DNA of 64,000 bases from an uncultured Gammaproteobacteria bacterium. Lineage in GTDB: Bacteria; Patescibacteriota; Microgenomatia; UBA8517. Within the stretch, counting starts at the first letter, position 1, and each line of letters opens with the position of its first letter. The notes below the pieces were generated by a model. That model saw only the letters and a list, made by a program, of their open reading frames with translations. It did no database searches and was not told where the DNA came from. The DNA is taken from the NCBI GenBank assembly GCA_964599625.1, contig CAZRGC010000002.1:71883-135882 (forward strand), given 5' to 3'. Both the position numbers and the translations under genes were made by a program. Positions 5,291 to 58,255 of the stretch are shown here, in pieces.

Positions 5291-5304
5291 ATTTATATGA
5301 CTAT

Positions 5305-6528: not shown

Positions 6529-6541
6529 CAACTACAACAAC

Positions 6542-9721: not shown

Positions 9722-9738
9722 GAAGTAAGAAAGTAAAT

Positions 9739-13586: not shown

Positions 13587-13587
13587 T

Positions 13588-14106
13588 ATGAATAAATTTA
13601 CATTGATTTTGTATTCTGTTCTGATATCGCTTTTAATTGCTCCTACTGTTTTGGCTCACGGGACAGCTCAAAGTTTCCCTAAAGATGTCGACAAATATAC
13701 GATTGAATTTGAATATGACGCATCTGGGGTTTTTGATGACACAACGATGGCTTTTGTTTTTAGGCTTTTGGACCAAAAGTCAAAAGAGCCGGTTAAGTTT
13801 GACTCTGTGTTGGCAAGGTTTGAAGACAGCAAAGACAAGTCGGCTGTAATAGTTTCCAGGCTATACCCGGATGAGCTACTGGACGGAATTGCCAGAATAT
13901 CTGCACTTTTGAATCGTGGAGACTATAAAGTATATTTAATCTTTTACAAAGAGGGAAACAAAATTGTTGAAACAGATTACGACCTGAACGTTCAAAAAGG
14001 TACAACAAGGAAAGACTTTCCGACGGTTCCAGTTGTTGTTGGGTTTTTGGGTTCTGCGTTGGGTTTTGTTTTTGGCAAGATGAAGAAGTCTTCAAATGAG
14101 AGATAA
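13588..14106 (+). CDS. Secreted protein with signal peptide and C-terminal TM anchor; function unknown.
   Basis: ATG at 13588 lies 2 nt after the upstream TAA. The ORF track opens at 13558. Signal peptide MNKFTLILYSVLISLLIAPTVLA|HG. C-terminal TM (VPVVVGFLGSALGFVFG) followed by basic residues. Confidence 0.4.
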   Translation: MNKFTLILYSVLISLLIAPTVLAHGTAQSFPKDVDKYTIEFEYDASGVFDDTTMAFVFRLLDQKSKEPVKFDSVLARFEDSKDKSAVIVSRLYPDELLDGIARISALLNRGDYKVYLIFYKEGNKIVETDYDLNVQKGTTRKDFPTVPVVVGFLGSALGFVFGKMKKSSNER

Positions 14107-15670
14107 AAAGTTACTGCTTCTTTTGTTTTTAATCCTATTTTTGGGACTGATTTTACGAACTTACAAACTTAATACAAATTTTATTTTTGGTGTTGACCAG
14201 GCGGAGGATATGTTTAAGTTCAAAGAAATCGTAACCGATATAGCTAGAGGTAACTTTTCCAACCTTCCGCTAATTGGTGAACCCGGGACAGATTTGACCG
14301 ATAACAAAAACGTACACGGCGACTACGTTGTGTATTCCGGGGCGCTTTTTTTGTATCTGGTGACACCGTTTGCTTTGATATCACGGTTTGATCCATCGAT
14401 TTTGGTGTATTTTTTTTCTTCTGCCAACCTTTTGGGAGTAATTTTGATTTATTTAGTTACCAAGAAGTTGTCGGGTAGTGTGCAGGCGGTTTTTGCTTCA
14501 CTTTTATATTCGGTAAATTTCTACATGTCTACCTATTCCCGAGCAATCTGGACTCCAAGTCTTGTTCCGGTTTTTTTGTTGACAGCTTTGTATTTATGGT
14601 CGGTTGTAAAAGAAGGTAGGGAGTCTTTGGTCCCTGCATACCTTTTTTTTGCCTCTGCTATTTCACAACTACATGACTCGGGGTACTATTACATGTTCTT
14701 TTTCATTATCCTGGCATTGGCAAGTCGTATTAGATTGTTTGCCAAAGATAAAGTTGTCTACAATTCGATGGCTTTTCTTGCGCCTCTTACACCAACACTT
14801 ATTTATGAAGTCAGTACCGGTTTCAGGTTCTTTAAACATATTATAGGTACGCTCTTGACTAATTCTACTAGTATAAATAGTGACCTGATTGTTGGGATTT
14901 TTGGTAAGTTTTGGGAATTTTTTGTGTCCATCAATTTTCCTTTATATTTCCACAATTTCTTTAGTCAAAAATATTCAATTTTATATATCCCGCTTTTAAC
15001 TGTCATAACTTTGGTAACAACACTTGGACTATTTTTGCCGATTATAAAAAGGGACAAAAAACTTGGTGTACTTTTTTTTGTTTTTATCATGACTTTTTTG
15101 GTTGTGCCTTACGCCTCAAAGGTTTTTTATAACGATTCATACTTTGGTTTATTCCCGCTTTTTGGAACCACATTTTCGACACTGGGTGCTATGCCTATTG
15201 TTATTATTTCTGTTGGTGTATTTTTGGGAAATCTGTACCTTAGGGGCGGTGTGGTAAAGTTTCTGTCGTTGGCTGTTGTTTCCTTTTTAGTTCTTAATCA
15301 AATTCCTTTGATCAAGTCCACTATTTGGGAAAACGGAGAACGAAAATATGACTATGGCAACAAACTGGACATAATAAAAACTCTTGGTGACAATGTTCAT
15401 TCTGGCTACTCGTTGGAATATCTGGATCCAGATAGCTACGGTGAAGGTTATGAGTTTTTCTACATTATAGAGACAGCAAACGTTAGACTACCTTACTCAT
15501 ATAACGGCGCTACGGAAAAAACCACACTTTTTCATAGATACGAGTTTGGCAAAAATAAGCCTTCAGACCATTTTGCGATTGCAGGGCGCAGGGTCTGGGA
15601 CAAATTTTCCGTAGAAGAGTGGCATCAACTTGGCGAATCCGGAGAATTTAGAATATTTAGGCAGAAATAG
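14096..15670 (+). CDS. Polytopic membrane protein. Putative GT-C-fold glycosyltransferase of the ArnT/PMT type (polyprenol-phosphate-sugar dependent).
   Basis: More than 10 predicted TM helices. An early extracytoplasmic loop GVDQAEDMFKFKEI resembles the ArnT DETRYAEISREM aspartate-glutamate motif. C-terminal soluble domain of about 120 aa. The assignment rests on pattern resemblance only. Confidence 0.4.
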   Translation: MRDKKLLLLLFLILFLGLILRTYKLNTNFIFGVDQAEDMFKFKEIVTDIARGNFSNLPLIGEPGTDLTDNKNVHGDYVVYSGALFLYLVTPFALISRFDPSILVYFFSSANLLGVILIYLVTKKLSGSVQAVFASLLYSVNFYMSTYSRAIWTPSLVPVFLLTALYLWSVVKEGRESLVPAYLFFASAISQLHDSGYYYMFFFIILALASRIRLFAKDKVVYNSMAFLAPLTPTLIYEVSTGFRFFKHIIGTLLTNSTSINSDLIVGIFGKFWEFFVSINFPLYFHNFFSQKYSILYIPLLTVITLVTTLGLFLPIIKRDKKLGVLFFVFIMTFLVVPYASKVFYNDSYFGLFPLFGTTFSTLGAMPIVIISVGVFLGNLYLRGGVVKFLSLAVVSFLVLNQIPLIKSTIWENGERKYDYGNKLDIIKTLGDNVHSGYSLEYLDPDSYGEGYEFFYIIETANVRLPYSYNGATEKTTLFHRYEFGKNKPSDHFAIAGRRVWDKFSVEEWHQLGESGEFRIFRQK

Positions 15671-16101: not shown

Positions 16102-17279
16102 AGTCTGATATTAGCTCGACCCTCAAATTTTTAGTTTTGGGAGGTCTTTTCGTATATATAATTTTTTTTCCCGTAAGTGATATTGTCGGGGGTATCCGCA
16201 GTACCTCTTCATTTTTGCGCTGTCATACACTTGAAAACTCTTCAGACAAAGTTATTTGCCAGAGAAAGGCGATAAGAACTGCGGTACAATCCGGTTCGGT
16301 AAATACTGCAATTAGCCTTTATAAAAGTGCTATAAGGGTTGGTGCTATCGATTGCCACTTTCTTGGCCACGAAGTGGGTAGAGATTTTTATGAAGTATTC
16401 AAAGAGCGGGGATTTGCAAGGGTAGGTGAGCCTATGTCTGAGTGCGGGTACGGTTTTTGGCATGGGTTTATGACGGGTGTGGCTCAGGACTTTTTAACAA
16501 CAGGAGAAGCAAAAGTTGATCTAAACAAAGTGTGCCCAATGATGTTGGGAAATAAAAAACAAATTTACGACATATGCTATCACGGTTTTGGGATAGGCTT
16601 TGTTGGCGACCCACCATTTCCTGAGAATGTGGGTAACATTCAAAGTACTGTTGACCGGGCAACAGGCCAATGTGACAAAATCACAAACGTTCCGATATAC
16701 AATGAACAGTGTTATTCGGGGGTTTTTCATCAAATGTTAAGTTATATGCAAAACTCTGAGTACGACTACAAATTTCCTTCCGGTGACGATGTGTATTTGT
16801 TTTGTAACAAATTTGGCACTTCCAAAGTGCGGCCTTGTATTGAGCAGCTTGGTCCTGTGCTCACAATTGTTGTTACGGACGATGTTGCGAAAATTACCGA
16901 TCTTGTGAACAAAAAATTTGGCTGGTTAGACAAAATAACCAGATCAAGACTTCTTCAGACAGTAGTAGGTGGAGCTGTCCATGCAAACACCGACGACAAG
17001 GATGCTTCAAGTATGATTTTTTGCTTTAGTTTGAAAGACAGCGACGTTACCGATTGTATAACTGGCGTGTTTTCGGGTGTAAAGACGAAGTCGGCAGAAG
17101 GTGACGTAAAAGCTTTGGAAAGGCTGGTGTCTTTTTGTTTGCAGGAAAAACTATCCTCGGAAAATCAAAAAGTGTGTATAGACTTTCTGAAAGCTTCCGT
17201 TAAAGACCCGGTACTCAACAAGGAGGTTAGATCTGAATGTGCACAAAAAAAAGATAAGGAAATATGCAAACTTATTTAA
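16098..17279 (+). CDS. Secreted Cys/His-rich repeat protein, family A.
   Basis: The ATG at 16098 forms an ATGA with the cupredoxin gene's stop. The ORF track opens at 16041 in the same frame. Signal anchor MKSDISSTLKFLVLGGLFVYIIFF. Motifs CHFLGHEVGRDFY, CGYGFWHGF, CYHGFGIGFVGD, CYSGVFHQML. Confidence 0.6.
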   Translation: MKSDISSTLKFLVLGGLFVYIIFFPVSDIVGGIRSTSSFLRCHTLENSSDKVICQRKAIRTAVQSGSVNTAISLYKSAIRVGAIDCHFLGHEVGRDFYEVFKERGFARVGEPMSECGYGFWHGFMTGVAQDFLTTGEAKVDLNKVCPMMLGNKKQIYDICYHGFGIGFVGDPPFPENVGNIQSTVDRATGQCDKITNVPIYNEQCYSGVFHQMLSYMQNSEYDYKFPSGDDVYLFCNKFGTSKVRPCIEQLGPVLTIVVTDDVAKITDLVNKKFGWLDKITRSRLLQTVVGGAVHANTDDKDASSMIFCFSLKDSDVTDCITGVFSGVKTKSAEGDVKALERLVSFCLQEKLSSENQKVCIDFLKASVKDPVLNKEVRSECAQKKDKEICKLI

Positions 17280-18438
17280 TCAAGGAAATAAGCAATGAGC
17301 AGATTTTAGATAGTTCTTTGTCTCCAAGTCCTTCGTAGACCGGGAGTGCAATGCTGTCTTTGATAACTTTTGCCACGTTTGATCTTCTTTTACCTTTGAT
17401 AAGATTGTCTGCAATTTCGTCTGCTAGTGCAATGTCGATTCCTTTTAGTGCCAACGACCGCCTTAGTTGGAAGATGTCTGCTTTTGTGTGTGCAAGGATC
17501 ATGTAATAAGAAGGTAAGTTGCCCTTTTGTATTCTTTGAAAGGTCAAATGCTTTTTGAGTTTACTAAAGTAATATTCACGTATCTTTCTGCGCTTTTCGA
17601 GTCTCTTTTGGAATGTTGGTATGTTCATTCTTGCTATTCTGGCATAGATAGGGGGAAGCTTGCTGTATATTTTTTCCTCCTCACCGGCCCTATACGATTT
17701 TACAAACATTTGCTGCCACTTTTTGAATCCAAAAACATACATCATGACATACCATATTGGAGTTTGAATTAGGAAATAGCCGAACAATGACTTGGCCAGC
17801 TCAAGTGGGGTTGAAGGGCTTTTTCCACCTACACCGCCAATGCTGTTTTTGACTCTCTTTATGATTTTTTTATTTTTACCGAATACGACACCGCCCCTGA
17901 TTCCTTGCAAGGGTTTTGATAAGTCAAAACTGGAAAAAGCAACATCGCCAAACGTGCCCAAAAGTTTTTTGTTTAAAGTTGAACCTAGTGATTGCGCACA
18001 ATCTTCAATGAGCAACAACCCCTTTGTTTTAGATAGTTTTTGCAGTTTTTGTATGTCACAGGCTACTCCAAAAAGGTGTGTCGCCAGTATCGCACCCGTG
18101 TTTTTATTTATAGACTTTTTGACACTTTCTACATCCATCTCGAATGTGTCGTAATTAATGTCGACCGGGTGTGGAATGTAACCCGCAGATTTGATTATGT
18201 GTGCAAGGGTTCCAAAAGTGTAACCTGGCATTATTACTTCTTTATTTTTCGGCATGCCTGAGTTCTCGAGTATTAATTTGAGACCAACCCTGCCTTGCCC
18301 CATAACTACCGGGTTCGGGATTTTGAGAAACGTTTTTAGGTCTCGCTCTAACTTTTCAGTTTCATCGTGCCTTATGGTGAGGTCGATTATTTTGTCCAAC
18401 GTTTTCGAGTGAAAATAAGGTTTTCGCCGCGGAATCAT
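17272..18438 (-). CDS. DegT/DnrJ/EryC1/StrS-family PLP-dependent sugar aminotransferase.
   Basis: VIMPGYTFGTLAHI; ATHLFGVACDIQKLQKLSKTKGLLLIEDCAQSLGS; FSSFDLSKPL with the PLP lysine. Colinear with the DegT family fold. Confidence 0.8.
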   Translation of the reverse strand: MIPRRKPYFHSKTLDKIIDLTIRHDETEKLERDLKTFLKIPNPVVMGQGRVGLKLILENSGMPKNKEVIMPGYTFGTLAHIIKSAGYIPHPVDINYDTFEMDVESVKKSINKNTGAILATHLFGVACDIQKLQKLSKTKGLLLIEDCAQSLGSTLNKKLLGTFGDVAFSSFDLSKPLQGIRGGVVFGKNKKIIKRVKNSIGGVGGKSPSTPLELAKSLFGYFLIQTPIWYVMMYVFGFKKWQQMFVKSYRAGEEEKIYSKLPPIYARIARMNIPTFQKRLEKRRKIREYYFSKLKKHLTFQRIQKGNLPSYYMILAHTKADIFQLRRSLALKGIDIALADEIADNLIKGKRRSNVAKVIKDSIALPVYEGLGDKELSKICSLLISLIK

Positions 18439-19190
18439 AGTAAATTCATTTTTTGAAGTCTAATCCTAGCACAACTTGCTACATACTCAAGCGAGTCCTT
18501 TAGGAAATATTTTATATATTTAGAATTCAGTCCAATTTTGGACTGCCCCTTGGTTCTTGGAGTGAATTTTGTCTTTATCTCGCAAATTTTGTTTGTATGC
18601 AAAGTGGTTTGGTAAATAAAGTAGTTAAAAAAACTAAAACCCTTGGGGAAATCATTAAAATCAAGTTTGCCAAGAATTGTATTATTTATGGCTTTGTATG
18701 CACTGTTGTGATCTTCTACTTCTGTAACTCCGGCAACGATTTCAGCAAATACGTTATTCGCAATAAAATGTATTGTTTGCCTGCCAAGCGACCATTTTGA
18801 ATGACCCGAAATTATTCTGCTGCAGGCAACTACATCCCATCCTGAATCAAGCTTTTTTAGTATCCTTGGAATCTCGCGCGGACTGTACGAAAAGTCTGCT
18901 TCGTTTGAAATTGTAAAGTCCGATTTAATTTTGAGTGAATGTTTGAGACCTCTTATCATTGCGGCTCCAAGTCCCTTTTTTCGTCCCGGGAGGAGGATTA
19001 TGTTTTTATTGTTTTTGGCAATTTGTCTCACAATTTTACCTGTCCCATCAGGGGAATTGTCGTCTACAACAAGAATTTTATATTCATATTTTTTTAATTT
19101 TTTAAAAATCGAATCAACAACTTTAATCATTGGAGCTATATTTTCCGCTTCGTTGTAAGTGGGGATTATATATGAAACTTTCTTCTTCAT
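18435..19190 (-). CDS. Family-2 glycosyltransferase (dolichol/polyprenol-phosphate mannose/glucose synthase-like).
   Basis: SYIIPTYNEAENI...KILVVDDNSPDGT is the GT-A DXD-type signature; size of about 250 aa. Confidence 0.8.
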   Translation of the reverse strand: MKKKVSYIIPTYNEAENIAPMIKVVDSIFKKLKKYEYKILVVDDNSPDGTGKIVRQIAKNNKNIILLPGRKKGLGAAMIRGLKHSLKIKSDFTISNEADFSYSPREIPRILKKLDSGWDVVACSRIISGHSKWSLGRQTIHFIANNVFAEIVAGVTEVEDHNSAYKAINNTILGKLDFNDFPKGFSFFNYFIYQTTLHTNKICEIKTKFTPRTKGQSKIGLNSKYIKYFLKDSLEYVASCARIRLQKMNLL

Positions 19191-19570
19191 TTTGGTTGAT
19201 AGGGGCCTTGTTTTATTTCCATTATTTCCGTATTTTTGTAGAAAGTTACTGAATGTGTTACCTCCATTATCAGCACACTATCGTCTCTTTTAAGTGTCTT
19301 TTCCTCAATGATACCGCCCCTTTTGTCGTAAAAAGTTATTTTAAGCTTTCCTCTTTTAATAATCAAAATTTCGTAAACAGGAGTTTTACTTTTTGACCAG
19401 ACTCTCTCGTGTCTGTGAGGAAGATTGGACTTCTTGACGCCTGATTTGTGAAACCCGATCTGTAGAAATGATGAATTTGGCGTAGGAAAGTATGGAGTGT
19501 TTTTGGGAAATCCTCTGAAAATTATTGCCACCTTTTTTGAACCGGCAAAGATATATTCTTCTTTGTACAT
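19187..19570 (-). CDS. Small cupin-fold protein, possibly a WxcM/FdtA-like sugar isomerase; uncertain.
   Basis: 127 aa with a His-containing motif NLPHRHER and a beta-rich profile. It sits between a methyltransferase and a GT2 in a sugar-modification cassette. Confidence 0.3.
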   Translation of the reverse strand: MYKEEYIFAGSKKVAIIFRGFPKNTPYFPTPNSSFLQIGFHKSGVKKSNLPHRHERVWSKSKTPVYEILIIKRGKLKITFYDKRGGIIEEKTLKRDDSVLIMEVTHSVTFYKNTEIMEIKQGPYQPK

Positions 19571-20298
19571 TATTTTTTTTGAGCCAAAATAATAACTGAG
19601 CTGCCAATCGGTATGTCTACATAACCAAAAATTATGGATTCAAGTTTTATTAAAACCTTAGCAATATAGTTAAGAACAGCGTTAACTTCTGACACGTCAG
19701 ATGTATGCGGCTTGAGTATTTTATCCAGTATTAGCCTTTTAAATGCAATTGCCGGGAGAGTACTCATAAATATATAGCTGGATCTAACTATTTCAAAATT
19801 CTGAGATTTAACGATTTTTTCCATTTGGGTAAGGGTATACCGGGTTTTTCCTTGTGTGTGGGTGTCGTGTCTGCCGGCTAGGATGGGAAGGGCTGAGTCT
19901 GTTATAAGAACTAGGCCATTTTTTTTGAGAACCCTGGATACCTCTTTTATGACACGTTTTTCGTCTTTTACGTTTTTGTGATAGAGAACATCAAATAATG
20001 TAACCAAGTCAAACTTATCTTCTTTTTGAGGTATTTTGGCAATATCGCTTATGAGTATTTTTACACCTCTTTTTTTAGCAAAAATTGCAGAATATCGTGA
20101 TTTTTCTATACCAACGACGTCACCATATTTTTCAAGATATTTAGTCATGCCCCCAGTACCCGATCCCAGATCGAGTATTTTTATATTACTTTTGAGCCTA
20201 TTTTTCAGAATTGCCTCAACAAACATTCTTTTCCCCAAAAACCAGAAGTGTTTATCTTCGATGTCAAACATTATTTTGTACTCTCTGGAGTTCATCAA
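19570..20298 (-). CDS. Class I SAM-dependent methyltransferase.
   Basis: Motif I ILDLGSGTGGMT. Acidic residue in VVGIEKS. DVLYH in the post-I region. Confidence 0.8.
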   Translation of the reverse strand: MMNSREYKIMFDIEDKHFWFLGKRMFVEAILKNRLKSNIKILDLGSGTGGMTKYLEKYGDVVGIEKSRYSAIFAKKRGVKILISDIAKIPQKEDKFDLVTLFDVLYHKNVKDEKRVIKEVSRVLKKNGLVLITDSALPILAGRHDTHTQGKTRYTLTQMEKIVKSQNFEIVRSSYIFMSTLPAIAFKRLILDKILKPHTSDVSEVNAVLNYIAKVLIKLESIIFGYVDIPIGSSVIILAQKK

Positions 20299-20322: not shown

Positions 20323-20844
20323 TTAGTAATAGCAAACTCCACCACAGCAATTCCCAGGGTTATAGGCATTGATATCCTGACAGTCGGCTGTCGAAGCAGA
20401 CTTCATGACACCAAGTCTTCGGAGCCCCGGGCTTGAAGCTTCAAAGAAAGTAAAGTCTGCCGCCCAGCCGTCGGCATCGAAGTCTGCAACAAAGATTGGT
20501 GCTCCTGTTTTGATCAGTCCGCCGCTTTGGATTGCGACAGATCCGCCGCTCATGGTAAGCGACCCAACCAGAAGCGAGCCTGTTGAATTTATTGTAACGG
20601 AACCGTTACTTAAAAGGGAAAGGGAGGCTGTGTTAGATGTCGAAACTTCGTTTCCGTTTGCATTGTCAACCCCTTCTTTAGTGGATATTGTGCAGGTAGT
20701 TGACCAACTGACATCTTTGTTGTTGACAGTCATTGCTGCGTTGAAGTTGCAAGCCGCGAACGAATATTGAGGAAAAGTAATACAAACAGTTTCTAACAGA
20801 ATGAAGAGAAATATAGACCTTAATGTTTTTTTAATAATATTCAT
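20323..20844 (-). CDS. Small secreted S/T/G/N-rich protein with C-terminal NPGNCCGGVCYY motif.
   Basis: Signal peptide MNIIKKTLRSIFLFILLETVCITFPQYSFA. Low-complexity beta-like sequence reminiscent of the giant protein's composition. Lies 69 nt downstream of the giant gene on the same strand. Confidence 0.5.
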   Translation of the reverse strand: MNIIKKTLRSIFLFILLETVCITFPQYSFAACNFNAAMTVNNKDVSWSTTCTISTKEGVDNANGNEVSTSNTASLSLLSNGSVTINSTGSLLVGSLTMSGGSVAIQSGGLIKTGAPIFVADFDADGWAADFTFFEASSPGLRRLGVMKSASTADCQDINAYNPGNCCGGVCYY

Positions 20845-20913
20845 TATATCGAATATTGGAATATATTAAATTTAGACCTGTTGAAAAGTGAAGTCAATAG
20901 TTTGTATTAGTGA

Positions 20914-23900
20914 CTATTCTGTTTGAACTATCCACCAGTTGAAGTTGGTGTCTTCGGGAATTGGTGAGGTGAAACCGACCTTGAAATATCCGTTGCCTTT
21001 CTCTTTTATATAAAGCACGTTGTTTTGGGTATTGGATGTTGGCGTTATATAAACGAATGTGTAGTCGTTGACCTTGGGATTTCTTATTGTGATATCTGCC
21101 GAATTTGCCGGAAGCACACCTTTTCCAACAGTGGAGTTTGTGTGTATCTCGCCGTTTACAACTGCTGAATTTGTTGCATCTTGTGCACCTGCAACTATTA
21201 TTTGGGAAACATTCACGCTTGCGAAAGTTGCGCTTCCCGAAGCGTCAATTGAGGATACTTGATTACCCGATATGTCTTTGACGGCCAAAGTTGAAGTGGA
21301 AACTGTTCCGGCTACATCCAAGTTTCCTGCTATGGCAACGTTGCCGCTGGTATCTATTGTTACCAACCCTGCCATTATTTCAACGGGGGCGAGCGCCAGG
21401 TCCTGAATCTTCAAAGGCTCTGAAAGTGTGTTAATTCCGGTGGACGCAATTACCAAATCGTTACCGATTGTTGCCGTTTGTGTGACGGATAGTGAATTGA
21501 GAGCTGCCTGATTTGTGACATACAGGTCTGCTGTTGCCAATTGTCCAAAAGAGCCGGAGGCTGTGGATGTTGATGTGTTCCAGTTTTGAGATTCTGACAA
21601 CAAAGCCTGGTCTTCTTGTACTTGAGTAAGTATATCTCGGATTTGATCGAGGTTTTCTGAATGGATGTTTCTGGCATATAGCTCTCCCGAGAAGGTGGCA
21701 TCGCCCGTGCTTGAAATTGAAGCAACCTCTTCGTTTTGGGCATTTGTTATTGCCAGCCTACCGCTTTCTGTGGCTGATCCTATTTGGACTGTTATGTCTG
21801 TTTCTTCAGCAAGAGGGGCTATAAGTTTTGTTTTAAAGTCGGGTGCGATAAGACCCATCGAGATCAACATGTCTTGGGCTGAAATCTGTGTTGCGTTTAT
21901 TGTTTGTGTTGCTATTTCCTCTGCTTGAAGTGCGCCGGTTTTAATATTCGCTGCGACAAAGTTGCCGATTGACTCAATTCCGTCGATTACCTGTCCGGAT
22001 GCGTTTTTGAGTGAGTATGTGGCAATGCCCATTCCGTCGGATACTTTTTCGATAACAAAGTCACCCAGACGGGCGGCTTGTATGTTTTCTGCAAAGTTTG
22101 TAACTATATCAGCATTATTTATGATGAATCCTGCCACACCCTCGGTTCTGGTATTGAGCCAATTTGCCGCATCAAATCTGGGACCTGTCAGTCTATAAGA
22201 GATTTGTGCAGGCATGGCTGAGTAAATGTTTACTCTTTTATTTGACTGGTCAACTTCATACCAAGTTTTGGTTGGGAAGTTGGGTGTTAAAAGTGCTGTC
22301 AGTTTTCCAATGTTTTCGTTCATATTGGTTGTCTTGCCGAAAAGCCACAAGTCGCTTCCTTCCGGTTGGGCATTGAAGTCAATTACTGTTCGATAGCCAA
22401 CACCTGGTAGATATTCCGTAGTCTGGGTTGAGCCCGATACTTCTTCTTTTACACCAATCATGCTCGCAAGATATGTTGCATATTTTTTACCATTAATTGT
22501 GTAAGGAGGGTCGACGGTTCCAACGTCAATTTTTCCTGTTCCGCCGCCGACTGTTAAGTCTGTTCCCGAATTGTCTCCCAAGAACACATCTCCATTGGTG
22601 GCTACTCTGAATCTTAGAACGCCACCAGCTGATGCAACTATCAGGTCTCCACCCTTGCCGTTATTGACCGCCAGTGCCGGCTCACCAACGTTTGATTGAT
22701 TGTCTATTACCCAACTTCCTGCAGATAGGGTGTTTTCCAAGGCTGAAGTTGTGGCACAGGCTGCTCCAGATTGACCGGTACAGAGAACTATTGTTGCTGT
22801 TCCGTTGGTGTTGTAGATATTTTTACCGTCAAGATAAAGACCTGTGTCAACTTCCAGGTTGCCGTTTATCAAAACATCACCGGCGGTGGATAAGGCATGG
22901 TCGCTTGTTGTATCCGCTGTTGAAAATCTTGAGAATGTTCTGGTTGTGAGGCCTGTGACTGTTCCCACCAAAAGGTTCTTGGAGACCCCCAAAACACCGG
23001 CTGTTCCTGCATCGTAAAGTTGTGCAAGAGTGTTTGTTCCGTCAGTGAGCGATAGTGTTCCACCGTCACCAATTGTAATTATTGGTGAAGTATCGACAAG
23101 TGCTATGTCGGTATCCCATCCTGATCCAATTGAGAGTGCTGTTTCTGTTCCCGCACCTGCTCCTGAAAGATTTGCAATGTTGATACCGTATTCAGTGATA
23201 CCAGACCCGGCCGAGGCAGGGCTAACTTTGAGTCCGGAGTATGCACAAGTGCCACCTGTACAACCTGTGAGAGTTGGCGCAGAAACGTTGAACATGTTAA
23301 ATTCTTTTGTGCCTGTCGCTCCTGTTGTATTCAAAGTACCTGTGATATTTAGGCCATTAACAATTGAGTTTCCGGATGTGTTTGAAGATGTGTTACTTAA
23401 TGCAAGATTTACCAAAGACCCAGTGTTAGCGGCTGTTTGTGTATAAACTGCAGAGTTAATATCTATGACGTTGCCTGTTGTTAGGGCATTGCTAGCAACT
23501 ATATTAAATAAGTCTCCGGTTGTGAGATTTGCAGAATCCGTATATGTCATAGCATTGGCTGATGTTGATGGTCCAAAGTAGTTGTAGGTAAAGTTGCCGT
23601 TTGAATCAACCGACATTGCCGGGGTTTGGATAACCTCGCCTGTTGTTGTATTGGTAATGTTGTTGTAGTTGTTGTAGACCTGGAAGACATTATTAACAGT
23701 CACAGCGTTTTTGGTTTGGTTGGGGCTTGTGAGAGTTGCCAAGGTTGAATAAAGCGAAGTATTGGTTGTTTCCATCCAGGCTTGGTTATTGCCACTGCCG
23801 TCGATTCCTGCAATAGAAAGCGTTGCCTTTGTGTCACAGGAAGATGATCCGGAGTTATAAGCGATGCAGGGGAATCCTGCTACTGACAGCGATATTACGT

Positions 23901-26900
23901 CATTAGCTGAGTATTGAGTGCTATTGTCGGAATCTTTGGTTGTATTGGCTGTATTGTCGTAAAGATCCACTGCTGAGTCGCTGTCAATTCCAACAACGGT
24001 GACGCCACCTGTGTTGCCGGAAGCATCATTTATACCTGCATAAATAAATTGGGAGCCGGAGTCAATGCCAACCGACATGACTCTATTGGAAGTTGAAGTT
24101 CCACCCGATGCGTTACCCATAAGTCTTTGGTAGTTGTCGGCCGTTACGTTTGCAATGGCAGAAGCATTGTGGCTGCTTAATGCTCTTTGGCCAACCTGGT
24201 ACATTTTCTTTATCTGTGAGACTGTCATAGCTTCAGCTGTTATGGTCAACTCATCCAAATCTCCGTTCCAGAAGTTAGCCCCTGTGGCACAAGCTGCACC
24301 CGTTGAACAATCTGCGCCAACCCCCAAAATAACTCCTGTTCCTGTGAGTGTTCCCGTTGCCGTTAGAGATACATCAGACGCTGCAAGTTCGCCGTCTATA
24401 TACAAGTAGATTGCATTTGTGGAATCTTTTACAGCAACCAGGTGGTGCCATGAATTATCCAGAAATGTTCGTGATGTTGTAGCTTGGTCGTCTGTTGGAT
24501 CGGCGTTGGTCCAGGTTGCATCGTCATCGATACCAAAGGTTATTGTGCCGGCAGAATTCATCCAGATCTTCCATCCCAAAACCGCAGCAGGGGTGGTGTT
24601 ATAAGTATGGTCAATTATCACGTCATCGTTGGGTGCTGCCGGGGGAGCAGACACCGAATGTTTGAACCAAGTTGAGACAGAGAACGAACCCGTGCCAAAG
24701 TCGTAGTCAGAATCTGTATCACAGGTGTTGTCGTTGTTGGCATCAGAACAGAAGAAGTCATCTGTGTTGTCGAGTGTTACTCCGGTTCCACGGACGCCGC
24801 TTGCGTATGTAAAACCTGTTCCGTTAGCGTTGTCAGCATCAAGCACATTGCCTTTTACCGAAACATCGGTTGCGTTTGCGTTGTCAGCTATTGTTCCACT
24901 TCCGTTGAATGTCCATGAGCCTCTGATGTCTCCAATCATTTGCTCGGAAATGTAACTGCTATTGTAATACTTTGCACTTCCGTTACTTTCATCACCCTTT
25001 TTGTCATCAATAACTGTAAGTCCTCCATTGTGGCCAACGAAGATGGTGTCACTTTTTCCGTCTATCTTTGAAGTTCCTGTGGTTACCGCAAGATCTGATG
25101 GCGATACATTTATTGTTTGTGCGGAGGCAAAAAGATATGGCCCTGCAACAGCACCTGCGCCTGCAATCTTCACACCCGTTTCATCCCAAACATTGTCAGG
25201 GGTTCCATTCAATTCGCTTGCTGAGTCTGTTACAACACTGTTCCATCTTTCCAATTGTTGTGAGGTTTCGTTGAGGGCATACATATCACCTGTTTGTGAA
25301 ATTAAGGCAGTGTTGTAATCATCATTTGTGGCGTCTGAATAGCTGTACACAACATTGTCGGTTTCGTTAATGACTGATACTCCTGTGTCAGTTGCAACAG
25401 CAACATAAGTTTTACCTCGATATGTTCTAGCGTGAACATCATTAGCTGCAGAGTCTGCAATCGGGGATGAAGGACCAGATGTCCAGGTCACAGTCGTGTT
25501 TCTGTTCGCAATGTTCTTGTCGCTGTAGAAGTCGTTGGTTGAGTTGAACTTTTGTGCTCGATCTACTTTGAAGTCAATTACAAACAGTGCACCCGATGAA
25601 CTGTTGGCTGTGTAATAAATTTTTCCGTTCAAACCAAAGGTGGATGATCCAGTTGACGATGTCGTTGCGCCAATCATTTGCTCGGTTACACCGCTACCTT
25701 TATCAAACTCCATCCATAAACTGTTATCTTTTGCATCATAAATATATAGTGCGGTAGTAGTAGATACCAATATAGCCTTTTCCGGGAATTCGCGCCTGGA
25801 GCCTCTCGTTGCACCAGATGCTTCGTTGTACCAAGAACTTCCCTTGGCGCGCTCATCGTTTCTCCATAGACCTCCATCCGGGTCTTGGGTTGTGTCGTAT
25901 ACGAAAGTATCAGTAAGGTTTGCTATTTGTGTCTGATCTTTTTGACCGGCAATGTTTGTATCTTGGTCGTTCCATGCAAATGCTGTTCTATTGTCATCTG
26001 ATCTCATTGCCAAGAAGTTTCCGCTGGTAAGCCCAAGTCCATATATCGTTGTAATATCACTTGTGTCACTACCGCTTGTGACTATTAAATTTGTTGTTCC
26101 AGTTTCACCACCAATAGCAACATTGTTTGTGCCAGTACCACCTGTTGATATGTTTACCGAATTGTTTCCTGTTCCAGTTGCTACGTTGACAGTGTTGTCC
26201 CCGTTTCCTGAACCTATGTTGATTGCGGAGTAGTTTCCTGATCCGTTTCCGATATTTAGTGCTGTTGTGGCTGCGCCTCCAAGTGATAGGGAAGTTGCAT
26301 TTGTGTTGAATATGGTTGCAGGACCTGATCCTGTGGTTGTAATGTCACTTCCGTTAACAGCCAAGTCTCCATTAGCGGTAACATTTCCGGATGCGTCAAC
26401 AATAAACATTGTTGCCAAAGAATTTGTGGCGTATATAAAGTTGCCTGTGAACGAACCACCGCCTGTGTTATCGAAATCAAATGATAGTCCGTTGCCAGTA
26501 AAGTTTGCAGGGCCGGCCTGTCCAAGTTTGATGATATTTCCGGAGGTTATTGCCGAAGCTGTTGCTTCAAAAATATTTCCTGTTGTAACAACTGTTGAGT
26601 TGATCTTGGCAATGTCCCCAATTGCGTTTTCGATTCCAAACACTTGGAAAGCAGATCCTGTTGCGTTTCCACCAACCGTCAAATCATAGGTGGAATTGGC
26701 AGGGGAGAGAACTTTGTTTGCAAGCTGCCACCAACCTTGTGTTCCGGATGTTGCAGTTGTGGTAATTGCCCCAGAACACGTGAGGTTTCCGTTTGCGCCG
26801 TCCATTGTACAACCCGTATCGCCACTGCCACCTTCAAACACTATAGAAGCCGTTCCGCTTCCTGTTGGGCCTATATTTAGTGTTGTTGCGGCTCCAGCAA

Positions 26901-29900
26901 AGTTAAGTGTTGTGGTTGTTGCGTTAAGCAGAGAGAAGCTGGTCTCGTCTGTGGTTATGGAGGCACCATTCACAGCTAAGGCATTGTTTACAGTTGTTGT
27001 TCCGCTACCCGCACCAATTCCTAAAGTTGATGCATTAGTGAATAGGTTTGCAGTAGTTTGAGTTGTTGTCAGATCACCCCCGTTGACTGCAACATCACCT
27101 GTACAAGTTAAGTTTCCAGTGGAGTTGGCAATTGTACAGCCAGTGGAAGCGCTTCCGCCTGCAATTTCCACATCTCCTGCAGAAATATTGTTCAATTGAA
27201 GTGCTGAAGAGTTACCTGAATCAAGTCTTAAGATGCTGCCTGATTGGCTATTGGATATTGAATGAATACCTGTTCCTGTAAAAGAAATTCCCGCTGCGGC
27301 TCCGGTGAATGTTTGTCCTGTTGTGCCCGCCAAAGAAACGTTACCCGTGGAATCAACTGTGTAGTAGGTTGTGCCAGAGTTATCAAATCTAAGGAAGTTG
27401 CCGGAGAAGTTCCCGCCTCCAGCATTATCAAGATCTGCAAAGATTGCATTTCCCGAGAAAGCGTGTCCGTCACCACCACTACCGAGTTTGACAAGGTTAC
27501 CTGTTGTTATAGCAGAGGCTGTGGCCTCGAAAACGTTTCCAGTTGTAATGACTGATGAGTTAAGCTTTGCAATTCCACCGTTTGTGTTTTCGATGCCGTA
27601 TGCCAAGAACTTTGCAGACGAGGTTGAGTTACCACCCACAACAACATCGTATGTTTGATTGGATGGGTAAAGTGTCTGATTTAAAAGTGCCCAGTGGCTT
27701 GCACCCGCAGGACAGTTGGCACCACTACTGTCACAGACTGCAAATCCGTTTTGTGTGAAGGCGTTGGCATACACATTATCCCAAGGAAGAGACCCACTTC
27801 CCAAATCATTTGTTCCTGTTGTTGTTATCGGAATCAAGTCGACATCCTGTGCCACTCGGCCTGTGAATGTGATTGTGTCTGTAATTGCATCACCAAGTGT
27901 AGTGTTTCCGTTAACTGACAAGTCTCCTAAATCTGTAACGTTTTGGTTGTTGCCTGTGATGGCACCTGTTAATGTAAGCGCTCCCAATCTAAGTGTTCCG
28001 GAAGATGCCGTAATGTCGTGATTGCCGGCACCAGTAGCAAAAGTAAAATCAGAGTCTGCACCTGTTAGTGTAATTCCTGTCGTGCCTGTTGAAGATATGT
28101 TGCCATTAGCATCAATCTGGAAAGCGTCACCTGTTCCACTTGTTAAAGTTCCTGATATATCCAAATTTCCTGTAACGTTTGTGTTGTCTTGAAGTTCGAT
28201 AGTTGAACCTGAAACCAATATAACTTGATCAGAAGATGTCAATGTTAAGTCATTTCCTGCTCCGTTTGCCGTAACGTTAACAACCGATCCCTGCAGGGTT
28301 GTTGTTTGTCCTGTTGCGCCAATCACCAAAGCTCCGCCTGGTGTAATATTGAGTGCCCCGGATGATGTTATATCACCGCCGTTTATTGCTGCATCTCCTA
28401 ATGTAGAAATGTTACCTGCCGAATTAACAGTAAACTGTGTTGCGCCTGCATTATCAAATCTCAAGAAGTTTCCTGTAAAGGAACTTCCACCTGTGTTGTC
28501 AAAGTCCATAAATATTCCGTTACCTGTGAAATTTCCATTGTCACCACCTGTGCCAAGCTTTACCAAATTTCCTGTTGTTATTGCACTGGCTGTTGCTTCA
28601 AACACGTTTCCACTTGTGATTACTGTTGAATTGAGTTTGGCAATATCTCCTGAAGCTGTCTCTACACCAAACACCTGGAAAGCAGAACCGGTTGCAGTTC
28701 CTCCGATTGTTAAGTCGTAGGTTGAGTTGGCGGGGGAGATTATTTTGTTATTGAGCTGCCAATAAAGGCTTCCTGCTGGACAGTTGTTGCCGCTTGCGTC
28801 ACAGACCCCAAAACCGTTTTGGGTGAATGCTACTCCGTAAACGTTGTCCCATGGAAGTGACGCGCTTCCCAAATCATTTGTTCCTGTTGTTGTTATCGGA
28901 ATCAAGTCGACATCCTGTGCCACTCGGCCTGTGAATGTGATTGTGTCTGTAATTGCATCACCAAGTGTAGTGTTTCCGTTAACTGACAAGTCTCCTAAAC
29001 CTGTAACGTTTTGGTTGTTGCCTGTGATGGCACCTAAAAGAGTAAATGCTCCAAGTCTGAGTGTCCCAGCTGTTGCTGTTATATCGTGATTGCTTGCGCC
29101 GGTTGCAAAAGTTATATCAGAATCTGCTCCTGTAAGGGTGAGCCCTGTTGTGCCTGTTGAACTCAAATTCCCATTTGCGTCAACTTGGAATGCGTTACCA
29201 GTCCCGCTTGTTAAAGTTCCTGATACATCCAAATCTCCTGTTATGTTTGTGTTGTCGACTATTTCTACACTTGTTCCCGCGTTAAGGATTATTTGATCTG
29301 CTGACGTTAAAGAAATGTCATTTCCGGCGCCATTTGATGTAAGGCTTGCGGTTGACCCTTGCAGTGTAATTGGTTGGGTGGTTACTCCGGCAACCAGTGC
29401 TCCTGTGGGAGTGATATTCAAAGCACCCGATGATGTTATATCACCGCCGTTTACTGCAACATCACTTGCCACAATGTTTCCGCTTGAATCAAAGTGGAAT
29501 GTTGTTCCTCCGCCAACGGAATAACCTGCAGAATTCTGCAAATACCCCGACACCCCAGTTAATGAATTTGAATTGGGGAGTGTGAATGTTCCTGTTGCTG
29601 TTAAGTTGGCTCCATTTGCAGTGAGTGCTACACTTCCTCTTGAGTTAATTACAACATTTCCTGTTTCTGATCCGCCAAGTGTCAGGTCCGACATGTTTGT
29701 TGTTGCTAGATTGCCGTTGCCTGTCAGGTATGTTGCAACGTCCGCAACTGAACCAGAAACAGAAGCTGTTGGAACTCCTGAGGCCACATTTATAAATGCG
29801 AATTTAGCGGATGAGGTTGCATTGGAACCAACCAAAAGATCGACGGTGTTATTTACATTGTAAAGCGCCCCTAGTGCCTGTGCCCAATATCCTGCACCTG

Positions 29901-58254: not shown

Positions 58255-58255
58255 T

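What the first reader, a model, noticed from the sequence alone, without database searches (positions are those of the whole stretch)
17272..20298. Sugar-modification cassette co-oriented directly downstream of the giant surface-protein gene
On the minus strand the order is: SAM-like protein, giant protein, small secreted protein, SAM-methyltransferase, cupin, GT2, DegT aminotransferase. Intergenic gaps are 0-70 nt and the last four genes overlap by 1-4 nt. An aminotransferase, a methyltransferase and a cupin are the typical toolkit for making a methylated amino-deoxy sugar. A GT2 would load such a sugar onto a polyprenol phosphate. The giant proteins are very rich in Thr/Ser and N-x-S/T triplets. 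A dedicated glycan for a giant adhesin or S-layer-like protein is a plausible reading.
Basis: inference. Interest (0 to 1): 0.55.

Follow-up and report, generated by a model that had tools for sequence, protein, structure and literature searches.

The report
Amino-sugar lipid-carrier cassette beside giant gene
Four overlapping genes in an uncultured Patescibacteria-type bacterium most likely make a modified amino sugar and load it onto a membrane lipid carrier for attachment to something on the cell surface, but it is not shown that the neighbouring giant surface protein is the target.

Summary
On the minus strand a methyltransferase, a cupin, a GT2 glycosyltransferase and a DegT aminotransferase follow the 5727-aa gene and overlap by 1, 4 and 4 nt. 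The same order recurs in 9 Patescibacteria-type loci, with DegT identity of 46-70%.

The GT2 resembles only polyprenol-phosphate glycosyltransferases (DPMS, ArnC, GtrB). Relatives of the cupin sit directly upstream of a DegT gene in 50 of 58 unrelated metagenome loci, so cupin plus DegT is a general sugar-amination pair.

This is a PMT_2-type GT-C membrane glycosyltransferase at 14096-15670 on the other strand. A gene of this type lies in the same co-oriented gene run as the cassette in three other loci and within 10 kb in 8 of 9.

The best reading is an Arn-like, multi-component extracytoplasmic glycosylation route. Its acceptor is unknown.

The link to the giant protein is weak. The giant gene lies upstream in 5 of 9 loci, and all five fall in one part of the DegT tree. 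The other four loci sit among polysaccharide-type genes.

N-x-S/T richness is mostly compositional, and the window encodes no oligosaccharyltransferase. It also encodes no dehydratase, nucleotidyltransferase or flippase.

Verdict: interpretation partly supported; a new variant of a known kind; moderate interest.

The parts
19570..20298 (-). Class I SAM-dependent methyltransferase (242 aa from the TTG start; probably 241 aa from the ATG at 20295). It has a hydrophobic C-terminal segment at residues 221-240. Proposed role: N-modification of the amino sugar.
   Evidence: Pfam Methyltransf_11/31/25/23, E 1e-17 to 5e-13. Best solved relatives are phosphoethanolamine N-methyltransferases, about 47 bits. 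Orthologue present in all 9 loci. Hydropathy maximum 1.8 at residues 221-239.
19187..19570 (-). WbuC-like cupin (127 aa) with conserved His52-x-His54...His106. Proposed role: keto-sugar isomerase or epimerase feeding the aminotransferase.
   Evidence: NCBIfam TIGR04366 37.1 bits, below the cut-off of 42. 48 of 50 relatives hit the same model. AlphaFold pLDDT 93.4. The weak Foldseek matches are almost all cupin-fold proteins, including the FdtD ketoisomerase domain and WbcA. A DegT gene follows relatives of this cupin in 50 of 58 metagenome loci. Absent from L084 and L092.
18435..19190 (-). GT2 glycosyltransferase of the polyprenol-phosphate sugar synthase type (251 aa, no transmembrane helix).
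   Evidence: Pfam Glycos_transf_2, E 8e-23. Best NCBIfam matches are PgfS, ArnC and AglJ, with weaker matches to dolichyl-P hexose transferase and PpgS; all are far below the equivalog cut-offs. Best solved relatives are PfDPMS 5mlz (79 bits, residues 3-224), ArnC and GtrB. No hydrophobic segment reaches the threshold.
17272..18438 (-). DegT/DnrJ/EryC1-family PLP aminotransferase (388 aa). It belongs to a distinct subfamily with an aromatic/hydrophobic helical insertion of about 40 aa at residues 208-250.
   Evidence: Pfam E 5e-47. About 42 clusters match over most of the length, then scores drop sharply. Lys175 is invariant and the insertion is absent from canonical DegT. AlphaFold pLDDT 90.2. 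Foldseek TM about 0.8 to perosamine synthase, WbpE, ArnB and QdtB at 15-21% identity.
14096..15670 (+). Polytopic GT-C glycosyltransferase of the PMT_2 (GT39/GT83-like) family (524 aa). Candidate final transferase, convergent with the cassette and 1.6 kb from the DegT stop.
   Evidence: Pfam PMT_2 25.7 bits, cut-off 26.1. All 6 family members match and orthologues score 32-37 bits. One relative is named GT39 family by NCBI. At least 8 hydrophobic segments. Invariant FGxDQxED follows TM1. Same position in L082, L084, L092 and L093.
20845..20913 (-). 69-nt AT-rich spacer between the giant gene and the small gene. It holds a sigma-70-like TTGACT-17-TAAATT at 20897-20869.
   Evidence: Consensus scan, 9 of 12 matches; sequence read directly. 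This is a pattern match only. The scan found no terminator-like hairpin on the minus strand between 20914 and 17272.
20323..20844 (-). Small secreted Ser/Thr/Asn/Gly-rich protein (173 aa). It is a short form of a 310-374-aa family that also lies just upstream of the cassette in L082, L093 and L089. Role unknown.
   Evidence: BLASTP 46-51% identity to the N-terminal halves of the L082, L093 and L089 homologues. N-terminal hydrophobic segment. No family match reaches a curated cut-off in Pfam or NCBIfam.
20914..38097 (-). Giant protein (5727 aa) with one hydrophobic segment at residues 77-109 and one Laminin_G_3 domain. It is a candidate acceptor only; the link is not shown.
   Evidence: ORF. 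Composition and N-x-S/T statistics. Pfam. Orthologues lie upstream of the cassette in L082, L084, L092 and L093, but not in L085, L086, L089 or L090.

Best explanation
The four overlapping genes form a conserved Patescibacteria module. It is the cytoplasmic half of an Arn-like, multi-component transmembrane glycosylation route.

**Proposed mechanism**
1. An NDP-4-keto-6-deoxyhexose is made by a dehydratase encoded elsewhere in the genome (inferred).
2. The WbuC-like cupin isomerises or epimerises it (inferred from gene pairing and the His-x-His...His layout).
3. The DegT enzyme aminates it, using Lys175-bound PLP (family membership and the conserved lysine are shown; the substrate is inferred).
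4. The class I SAM methyltransferase modifies the product, probably by N-methylation (inferred).
5. The GT2, which has no transmembrane helix, transfers the sugar to polyprenol phosphate (inferred from exclusive similarity to DPMS, ArnC and GtrB).
6. After flipping by an unidentified protein, a PMT_2-type GT-C transfers the sugar to an extracytoplasmic acceptor. The GT-C at 14096-15670 is the local candidate.

The acceptor is not determined. The giant protein is one candidate among several.
For: - **Conserved gene order.** Methyltransferase-(cupin)-GT2-DegT occurs in 9 loci with DegT identity of 46-70%. The GT2/DegT 4-nt overlap is kept in 7 of them.
- **GT2 type.** It matches only polyprenol-phosphate glycosyltransferases among named families and solved structures.
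- **GT-C linkage.** A PMT_2 GT-C lies in the same co-oriented gene run as the cassette in three loci. In L085 it overlaps the methyltransferase by 4 nt, in L089 it overlaps DegT by 11 nt, and L086 has the same-strand order GT-C, 706-aa protein, methyltransferase, 572-aa protein, cupin, GT2, DegT. A PMT_2 GT-C lies within 10 kb in 8 of 9 loci.
- **GT-C motif.** The window GT-C family has an invariant acidic FGxDQxED motif after TM1. This is the position where GT-C enzymes carry a DxD-type motif (PMC8035078).
- **Cupin-DegT pairing is general.** A DegT gene follows relatives of the cupin in 50 of 58 metagenome loci, and in 15 of 15 with wide flanks. Nearby genes include methyltransferases (6 of 15), a formyltransferase and a GDP-mannose 4,6-dehydratase.
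- **Precedents.** FdtA and QdtB are enzymes of the pathways that make 3-amino-3,6-dideoxyhexoses for S-layer glycans, and FdtA uses His49, His51 and His95 (PMC2943079). The Tyl1a/TylB/TylM1 route to a dimethylamino sugar is from my own knowledge.
- **Membrane-side hints.** The GT2 has no transmembrane helix, as in systems where a soluble GT-A works with a membrane partner (PMC8035078). DegT and the methyltransferase each carry a hydrophobic segment.
Against: - No dehydratase, oxidoreductase or nucleotidyltransferase that could supply the keto-sugar is present in the window or in any of the 9 loci.
- No GtrA-, Wzx- or SMR-like flippase candidate is in the window.
- The cupin is not a member of the FdtA family. 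Its His triad is also the generic cupin metal site. It is absent from L084 and L092.
- The window GT-C is on the other strand, inside a separate conserved operon with Cys-rich and cupredoxin-like genes. Its orthologue on the L089 contig is more than 10 kb from the cassette, where a different PMT_2 gene is fused instead. Its pairing with the cassette is therefore not certain.
- All enzyme scores are far below equivalog cut-offs, so substrates are unknown.
Confidence: 0.6

Rival explanations
1. The cassette makes a dedicated glycan for the adjacent giant surface protein. It is co-transcribed with the giant gene, and a GT-C O-glycosylates the protein's Ser/Thr-rich surface.
For: - The giant gene lies directly upstream and co-oriented in 5 loci (window, L082, L084, L092, L093), with DegT identity down to 51%. 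This holds despite different inserted genes between them. In L084 the giant gene's stop overlaps the methyltransferase start by 4 nt.
- The scan found no terminator-like hairpin between the giant gene and the cassette.
- The giant protein is 24% Ser+Thr.
- There is a precedent. [quoted passage not shown]
Against: - 4 of 9 loci (L085, L086, L089, L090) have the cassette without a giant gene within 10 kb.
- The five giant-linked loci fall in one part of the DegT tree. There the whole ~40-kb block, including the Cys-rich gene array on the other side, is syntenic. The adjacency can therefore be explained by shared descent.
- The 69-nt spacer holds a promoter-like site. L092 and L093 have an ArsR-type regulator gene between the giant gene and the cassette, and L092 also has a 350-nt gap.
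- N-x-S/T excess is small, and there is no oligosaccharyltransferase.
Confidence: 0.2
2. The module decorates a non-protein envelope component: a teichoic-acid-like polymer, another secondary cell-wall glycopolymer, or a glycolipid. This would parallel GtlA/GtlB on lipoteichoic acid or ArnC/ArnT on lipid A. Its position next to the giant gene would be incidental.
For: - In three of the four loci without a giant gene, the cassette sits among polysaccharide-type genes (L089 has none nearby). These are an LtaS/EptA-like sulfatase-domain membrane protein and phosphodiesterases in L085, GT4 genes and a weak Wzy_C-like match in L086, and Wzy_C plus three GT4 genes in L090.
- PMT_2-type GT-C enzymes include GtlB, which acts on lipoteichoic acid (PMC8035078). 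ArnT, which acts on lipid A, is another PMT_2-type example from my own knowledge.
- Cupin-DegT pairs in other phyla lie in O-antigen-type clusters with Wzt ABC transporters.
Against: - No polymer-synthesis genes are in the window itself.
- Nothing is known here about envelope polymers of this organism.
- The conserved placement behind the giant gene in 5 loci is left unexplained.
Confidence: 0.3
3. The system is a general protein O-glycosylation system with many extracytoplasmic targets. Possible targets are the Cys-rich membrane-anchored paralogues, the cupredoxin-like proteins, the small secreted protein family and the giant proteins. It would not be a dedicated system.
For: - The Cys-rich family co-occurs with the cassette in 7 of 9 loci, more often than the giant gene.
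- The window GT-C is embedded in that family's operon in 5 loci.
- The small-protein family lies directly upstream of the cassette in 4 loci, including one (L089) without a giant gene.
Against: - Co-occurrence again follows one clade.
- L086 and L090 have neither family.
- No acceptor motif is known.
Confidence: 0.15
4. The DegT variant acts at the membrane on a lipid-linked keto-sugar, after the GT2 step, rather than on a nucleotide sugar. The cupin would generate or rearrange that lipid-linked keto intermediate.
For: - The subfamily has a conserved aromatic/hydrophobic insertion of about 40 aa.
- The GT2/DegT overlap is the most conserved junction.
- No dehydratase is encoded locally.
- More distant subfamily members lie in B12-radical-SAM clusters, with GT-C genes in L091, and without a GT2 in any of them.
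Against: - The cupin-DegT pair is widespread with canonical DegT enzymes in ordinary nucleotide-sugar clusters, including next to a GDP-mannose 4,6-dehydratase.
- The insertion's hydropathy (1.38) is below a transmembrane threshold.
- I know of no precedent for transamination of a lipid-linked sugar.
Confidence: 0.05

Closest known systems
Arn pathway (ArnB aminotransferase, ArnC GT2, ArnT GT-C) for 4-amino-arabinose on lipid A
   Same: It has the same three enzyme classes in the same logic. A DegT-family aminotransferase makes an amino sugar. A DPMS-like GT2 loads it on polyprenol phosphate. A PMT_2-type GT-C transfers it outside the membrane. ArnC and ArnB are among the best NCBIfam, PDB and Foldseek matches.
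   Different: - All scores are far below the equivalog cut-offs (ArnB 75.8 against 631; ArnC 68 against 529).
- There is no ArnA, ArnD or ArnE/F.
- A methyltransferase and a cupin take the place of the formyltransferase and deformylase.
- The GT2 lacks ArnC's transmembrane helices.
- A lipid A acceptor is not expected in a Patescibacteria-type organism (my own knowledge, not tested here).
Multi-component (three-component) transmembrane glycosylation systems of Gram-positive bacteria (CsbB/GtcA/YfhO, GtlA/GtcA/GtlB, GacI-J/GacK/GacL; GtrB/PgtC2 and Pgf for proteins)
   Same: A GT-A enzyme makes a C55-P-sugar, and a GT-C with an acidic first-loop motif transfers it. Variants with a soluble GT-A and a separate membrane partner are known. 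Acceptors include lipoteichoic acid, wall polysaccharides and Ser/Thr-rich protein regions (PMC8035078; PMC12041528).
   Different: The known systems use ready-made UDP-Glc, UDP-GlcNAc, UDP-Gal or UDP-GalNAc. None carries its own aminotransferase, methyltransferase and cupin. No GtrA- or Wzx-type flippase was found here.
3-amino-3,6-dideoxyhexose pathways (FdtA/QdtA/Tyl1a ketoisomerase, FdtB/QdtB/TylB aminotransferase, then an N-acetyl- or N,N-dimethyl-transferase such as TylM1 or DesVI)
   Same: A small cupin with a His-x-His...His cluster sits next to a DegT aminotransferase and an N-modifying enzyme. FdtA and QdtB are enzymes of the pathways that supply S-layer glycoprotein glycans (PMC2943079). 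The cupin model's best TM-scores include the FdtD ketoisomerase domain and WbcA.
   Different: - The cupin is WbuC-like, not FdtA family (no PF05523 hit).
- No RmlA/RmlB-type genes are nearby.
- The product is handed to a polyprenol-phosphate GT2 rather than to a Leloir transferase that builds a repeat unit.
WbuC family cupin (TIGR04366)
   Same: It is the closest named family for the cupin. 48 of 50 relatives match the model.
   Different: The score is below the cut-off (37.1 against 42). In the papers found, WbuC appears only as a passenger gene next to mcr-9 or blaCTX-M, with no tested function.

Membership tests
Multi-component transmembrane glycosylation system | GT-A (GT2) enzyme that makes a polyprenol-phosphate sugar | tested here: met
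   By homology only. Best named and solved matches are PfDPMS, ArnC, GtrB, PgfS and AglJ, with a weaker match to PpgS. No activity data.
Multi-component transmembrane glycosylation system | Membrane linkage of the GT-A (own transmembrane helices or a membrane partner) | tested here: inconclusive
   No hydrophobic segment in the 251-aa GT2. Possible partners are the methyltransferase C-terminal segment and the DegT insertion. This is inference.
Multi-component transmembrane glycosylation system | Flippase (GtrA-, Wzx- or SMR-type) | tested here: not met
   Only the GT-C and ComEC have 3 or more hydrophobic segments among window ORFs. No such Pfam hit. A flippase could be encoded elsewhere.
Multi-component transmembrane glycosylation system | Polytopic GT-C with an acidic DxD-type motif in the first outer loop | tested here: met
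   PMT_2 match for all 6 family members; orthologues score above the cut-off. Invariant FGxDQxED after TM1. In the same co-oriented gene run as the cassette in L085, L086 and L089.
Arn pathway | ArnB and ArnC equivalogs | tested here: not met
   NF008658 75.8 bits against a cut-off of 631; NF007986 68 bits against 529.
Arn pathway | ArnA (dehydrogenase/formyltransferase) and ArnD | tested here: not met
   No epimerase/dehydratase, formyltransferase or deacetylase domain in the window or in the 9 loci.
FdtA/QdtA-type amino-sugar pathway | Ketoisomerase of the FdtA family | tested here: not met
   No FdtA (PF05523) hit in any of 50 relatives at E <= 1. Only fold-level similarity and a His-x-His...His layout.
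FdtA/QdtA-type amino-sugar pathway | DegT aminotransferase with a catalytic lysine | tested here: met
   Pfam E 5e-47. Lys175 is invariant and aligns with the lysine of canonical DegT enzymes.
FdtA/QdtA-type amino-sugar pathway | NDP-hexose 4,6-dehydratase supplying the 4-keto sugar | tested here: not met
   None in the window or in the 9 loci. One cupin-anchored metagenome locus (L162) has a GDP-mannose 4,6-dehydratase directly upstream.
WbuC family cupin (TIGR04366) | Score at or above the curated cut-off | tested here: not met
   37.1 bits against a cut-off of 42. 48 of 50 relatives match at E <= 1e-3, best E 2.5e-10.
N-linked protein glycosylation (PglB/AglB type) | STT3-type oligosaccharyltransferase and acceptor sequons | tested here: not met
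   No STT3 hit among window proteins. Only 6 D/E-x-N-x-S/T sequons in 5727 aa. The 3816-aa ORF at 46804-58254 was not scanned.
Protein O-mannosylation type (GT39 PMT with Ppm1) | PMT family GT-C acting on protein Ser/Thr | tested here: inconclusive
   Only the PMT_2 model matches the window GT-C. PF02366 PMT appears weakly only for the fused GT-C of L089. The acceptor cannot be tested with these tools.

The most novel reading that the evidence does not exclude
A clade of Patescibacteria has an Arn-like route built around three unusual parts: a membrane-associated DegT variant with a 40-aa hydrophobic insertion, a DPMS-like GT2 without a transmembrane helix, and a WbuC-like cupin. The route would make a polyprenol-phosphate-linked N-methylated amino-deoxy sugar. 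A PMT_2 GT-C would attach that sugar to Ser/Thr of the 5727-aa surface protein. This would be a dedicated, possibly cationic, O-glycan on a giant adhesin of an episymbiotic bacterium. It would also give the first functional assignment for the WbuC-like cupins, as partners of sugar aminotransferases.
Probability: 0.15. Interest if true: 0.65.

Novelty: new variant of a known kind. Interest (0 to 1): 0.4.

Why it matters
- **Envelope chemistry.** Envelope and surface chemistry of Patescibacteria is almost unknown, and these organisms depend on cell-to-cell contact. A conserved module that puts a modified amino sugar on a lipid carrier for export identifies a concrete, testable piece of that chemistry.
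- **Candidate acceptors.** It gives a short list of acceptors to test: the giant protein, the Cys-rich family, or a wall polymer.
- **WbuC-like cupins.** These cupins are followed by a DegT gene in 50 of 58 unrelated loci. This gives a functional lead for a cupin family that is so far known mainly as an unexplained passenger next to resistance genes.
- **If the link is not real.** If the giant-protein link is wrong, the finding is an ordinary sugar-modification cassette in an unusual lineage.

Tried and rejected
**Searches that led nowhere**
- The genome-contig scan with the full DegT alignment was swamped by generic DegT genes. Only L002 and L003 belonged to the subfamily.
- The metagenome scan with the subfamily-specific C-terminal half found nothing.
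- The word-indexed homologue searches returned only 6 relatives for the GT-C and 2 for the cupin. The exhaustive representative search was needed for the cupin.
- PDB sequence searches gave nothing for the GT-C and only noise for the cupin.
- Literature searches found nothing on glycosylation of giant proteins in Patescibacteria or on Arn-like systems there.

**Readings considered and rejected**
- *N-linked glycosylation.* There is no oligosaccharyltransferase, few bacterial sequons, and the N-x-S/T excess is mostly compositional.
- *The 'SAM-like' ORF as an AdoMet enzyme.* It carries an integrase N-terminal DNA-binding domain.
- *The window GT-C as the universal partner of the cassette.* Other loci use non-orthologous PMT_2 genes, and two further polytopic families also occur (L086_706/L090_692/L085_573 and L086_572/L082_575).
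- *DegT phylogeny as a guide to substrate.* The subfamily has no characterised member, and structural matches do not separate C3 from C4 aminotransferases.

Full report
**1. Observation**

The minus strand carries, in order:
- a 174-aa ORF (38104-38628)
- a 5727-aa ORF (20914-38097)
- a 173-aa ORF (20323-20844)
- four tightly packed genes at 19570-20298, 19187-19570, 18435-19190 and 17272-18438

The gaps are 6, 69 and 24 nt. The last four genes overlap by 1, 4 and 4 nt.

Family assignments from Pfam and NCBIfam:
- The first of the four is a class I SAM methyltransferase.
- The third is a GT2 (E 8e-23).
- The fourth is a DegT/DnrJ/EryC1 aminotransferase (E 5e-47).
- The 127-aa protein has no Pfam hit. 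It scores 37.1 bits against the WbuC cupin model, below the cut-off of 42. An AlphaFold model built on 50 relatives is confident (pLDDT 93.4). Its weak Foldseek matches are almost all cupin-fold proteins.

Three corrections are needed:
- The 174-aa 'SAM-like' ORF carries phage-integrase N-terminal SAM-like DNA-binding domains. It is not an AdoMet fold.
- The methyltransferase probably starts at the ATG at 20295.
- The 173-aa protein is the N-terminal half of a 310-374-aa secreted family.

**2. The cassette is a conserved unit**

The DegT belongs to a sharply bounded subfamily. About 42 clusters align over most of their length, and then scores drop from 253 to 177 bits. The named relatives are Patescibacteria.

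I fetched the genomic context for twelve relatives and re-annotated the loci with the window's own proteins. Counting the window, nine loci carry the order methyltransferase-(cupin)-GT2-DegT: the window, L082, L084, L085, L086, L089, L090, L092 and L093. Their DegT identity to the window is 46-70%.
- The cupin is missing in L084 and L092.
- The GT2/DegT 4-nt overlap is kept in seven loci.
- More distant subfamily members (37-44% identity; L087, L088, L091, L003) lie instead in B12-radical-SAM clusters without a GT2.

**3.

A 524-aa polytopic membrane protein lies at 14096-15670 on the plus strand, 1.6 kb beyond the DegT stop.
- It scores 25.7 bits against Pfam PMT_2, with a cut-off of 26.1.
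- All six members of its family match PMT_2, and its orthologues in L092 and L093 score 32.3 and 37.5 bits.
- NCBI names one relative 'glycosyltransferase family 39'.
- The family has an invariant FGxDQxED motif just after the first transmembrane helix. GT-C enzymes carry their DxD-type motif at this position (PMC8035078).

Other loci place a PMT_2 gene in the same co-oriented gene run as the cassette:
- In L085 it overlaps the methyltransferase gene by 4 nt.
- In L089 it overlaps the DegT gene by 11 nt.
- L086 has the same-strand order GT-C, 706-aa protein, methyltransferase, 572-aa protein, cupin, GT2, DegT.

These GT-C proteins are not orthologous to the window's. Two further polytopic families also occur near the cassette. 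The conserved partner is therefore 'a GT-C-type membrane protein', not one particular gene.

**4. The GT2**

Every informative match is a polyprenol-phosphate glycosyltransferase:
- Solved structures: Pyrococcus DPMS (79 bits over residues 3-224), ArnC and GtrB.
- NCBIfam models: PgfS, ArnC, AglJ, dolichyl-P hexose transferase and PpgS.

All scores are far below the equivalog cut-offs, so the sugar is unknown. Unlike ArnC, GtrB and PfDPMS, this GT2 has no transmembrane helix. Systems with a soluble GT-A plus a membrane partner are known (PMC8035078).

**5. The cupin and the aminotransferase are a general pair**

An exhaustive search found 627 representative relatives of the cupin. Most are stand-alone proteins of 125-145 aa. 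His52 is invariant, and His54, Glu67 and His106 are nearly invariant. A C-terminal E-x-KQGP motif is also conserved.

A scan of metagenome contigs anchored on that motif returned 80 loci:
- In 50 of 58 loci with enough downstream sequence, a DegT homologue starts within 1.5 kb downstream on the same strand.
- This holds in 15 of 15 loci with wide flanks.
- Class I methyltransferases lie nearby in 6 of those 15.
- Other neighbours include a formyltransferase with a Gfo/Idh/MocA oxidoreductase (L122), a GDP-mannose 4,6-dehydratase directly upstream (L162), and Wzt-type O-antigen ABC transporters (L133, L134).

This is the layout of known amino-sugar pathways, where a small cupin ketoisomerase (FdtA, QdtA, Tyl1a) feeds a DegT aminotransferase (FdtB, QdtB, TylB) and an N-modifying enzyme follows. 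FdtA uses His49, His51 and His95 and works in the pathway that supplies an S-layer glycan (PMC2943079). The tylosin example is from my own knowledge.

There are limits. The cupin here is not an FdtA-family member, and its His triad is also the generic cupin metal site. A role as isomerase or epimerase is therefore inferred, not shown.

The methyltransferase's best solved relatives are phosphoethanolamine N-methyltransferases at about 47 bits. This is a weak hint of N-methylation.

**6. An unusual DegT**

Compared with canonical DegT enzymes, the subfamily has an aromatic/hydrophobic helical insertion of about 40 aa at residues 208-250 (LFGYFLIQTPIWYVMMYVFGFKKW...). The catalytic Lys175 is conserved.
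- The AlphaFold model is confident (pLDDT 90.2).
- It superposes on perosamine synthase, WbpE, ArnB and QdtB at TM about 0.8 and 15-21% identity.
- The position aminated cannot be read from this.
- The insertion's hydropathy (1.38) is below a transmembrane threshold.

Membrane proximity, or a complex with the GT2 that lacks a transmembrane helix, is a reasonable inference. It is untested.

**7. Is the giant protein the target?**

*Evidence for:*
- An orthologous giant gene lies directly upstream and co-oriented in the window, L082, L084, L092 and L093.
- This holds despite different inserted genes: the small-protein family, a 406-aa ORF, or an ArsR-type regulator.
- In L084 the giant gene's stop overlaps the methyltransferase start.

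*Evidence against:*
- L085, L086, L089 and L090 have the cassette without a giant gene within 10 kb.
- The five giant-linked loci fall in one part of a neighbour-joining DegT tree.
- In those five loci the whole block is syntenic, including the array of Cys-rich paralogues, the cupredoxin-like gene and the GT-C on the other side. Shared descent explains the adjacency as well as function does.
- Three of the four loci without a giant gene (L085, L086, L090) hold polysaccharide-type genes: GT4, Wzy_C and an LtaS/EptA-like protein.
- The window's 69-nt spacer holds a promoter-like TTGACT-17-TAAATT.

*N-x-S/T:* the giant protein has 164 triplets against 136 +/- 9 in shuffles (z about 3). The second giant protein shows none (z -0.5). 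There are only 6 D/E-x-N-x-S/T sequons, and no STT3-type enzyme is in the window. A PMT_2 enzyme would imply O-linkage or a non-protein acceptor.

**8. Mechanism and gaps**

The best-supported model is an Arn-like, multi-component transmembrane glycosylation route:
1. A keto-sugar nucleotide is made by an enzyme encoded elsewhere.
2. The cupin and DegT convert it to an amino sugar.
3. The methyltransferase modifies it.
4. The GT2 loads it on polyprenol phosphate.
5. An unknown flippase moves it across the membrane.
6. A GT-C transfers it to an acceptor.

What is shown: gene order, family membership, conservation and gene pairing. What is inferred: every chemical step and the acceptor.

Gaps:
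- No dehydratase, nucleotidyltransferase or flippase is found in the window or in the nine loci.
- The cupin is absent in two loci.
- The window GT-C is on the other strand, inside a different conserved operon.

**9. Comparison with known systems, and novelty**

The closest known systems are the Arn pathway and the Gram-positive multi-component glycosylation systems (PMC8035078). The latter include the protein-directed GtrB/PgtC2 and Pgf systems (PMC12041528).

The window system works like these. It is not a member of any defined family, because all equivalog tests fail. It adds its own amination and methylation unit and an unusual DegT.

I rate it a new variant of a known kind, with moderate interest. 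The toolkit and the lipid-carrier step are right, but the dedicated link to the giant protein is unproven and the N-x-S/T argument does not hold.

Noticed in passing
window 9-12946 (+) and 16041-17279 (+): There are twelve paralogues (326-502 aa), eleven in tandem and one downstream of the GT-C. They form a Cys-rich, N-terminally membrane-anchored family with motifs such as C..GYGFYHGF, CYHG(I/M)GHG and C..GVF.G, and have no Pfam hit. An HMM of the twelve finds the family next to the cassette in L082, L084, L085, L089, L092 and L093. Two members (1075-2583, 3812-5290) start with a segment that looks cupredoxin-like by eye; this was not tested.
   Followed up: partly
window 12963-14106 (+) and 15715-16101 (+): The GT-C is flanked by conserved small genes. 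One is a 182-aa protein with a signal peptide ending ..LAHG and a C-terminal anchor, an architecture that recalls YcnI/CopC copper proteins (from memory, untested). Another is a cupredoxin-like 128-aa protein (Pfam 23.8 bits, cut-off 27). This suggests a possible copper or redox theme around the GT-C. The block is conserved in L082, L084, L092 and L093.
   Followed up: no
window 38104-38628 (-) and the first ~55 codons of 20914-38097 (-): The 174-aa ORF has two phage-integrase N-terminal SAM-like domain matches but no catalytic domain. The giant protein itself starts with a similar-looking segment (..LKRKQISLNRFFDWAQNQGHIDSNP..) before its single hydrophobic segment at residues 77-109. A DNA-binding-type domain at the cytoplasmic end of a giant surface protein is odd.
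   Followed up: no
L087, L088, L091, L003: More distant members of the same DegT subfamily, which also carry the insertion (37-44% identity), lie in clusters of B12-binding radical-SAM enzymes. L087 and L091 each have a second DegT gene, and L091 also has a methyltransferase and GT-C genes. None has a GT2.
   Followed up: partly
L094-L173 (metagenome loci): WbuC-like cupins are followed by a DegT aminotransferase gene in 50 of 58 loci from many environments. This gives a functional lead for a family otherwise known as an unexplained passenger next to mcr-9 and blaCTX-M.
   Followed up: yes
window 20323-20844 (-); L082 7054-8010, L093 4906-5838, L089 6962-8086: The small secreted protein lacks the Cys-rich C-terminal half of its L082 and L093 homologues. 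The L089 homologue ends instead in a PT-HINT domain, as in polymorphic toxins.
   Followed up: partly
window 17272-17279: The DegT gene and the convergent Cys-rich gene (16041-17279) overlap by 8 nt at their 3' ends. No terminator-like hairpin lies between them.
   Followed up: no
window 46804-63193 (+): A second giant locus holds a 3816-aa ORF (27% Ser+Thr, not scanned against Pfam) followed by a 1665-aa protein with seven Laminin_G_3 domains. No sugar genes lie next to it.
   Followed up: no
L082 15515-17242; L086 7157-8875; L085 303-2024; L086 4313-6433; L090 6082-8160: Two further families of polytopic membrane proteins without a Pfam family recur near the cassette in other loci but are absent from the window. 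One has a weak DUF6044 match. They may be additional GT-C-like enzymes or transporters.
   Followed up: partly
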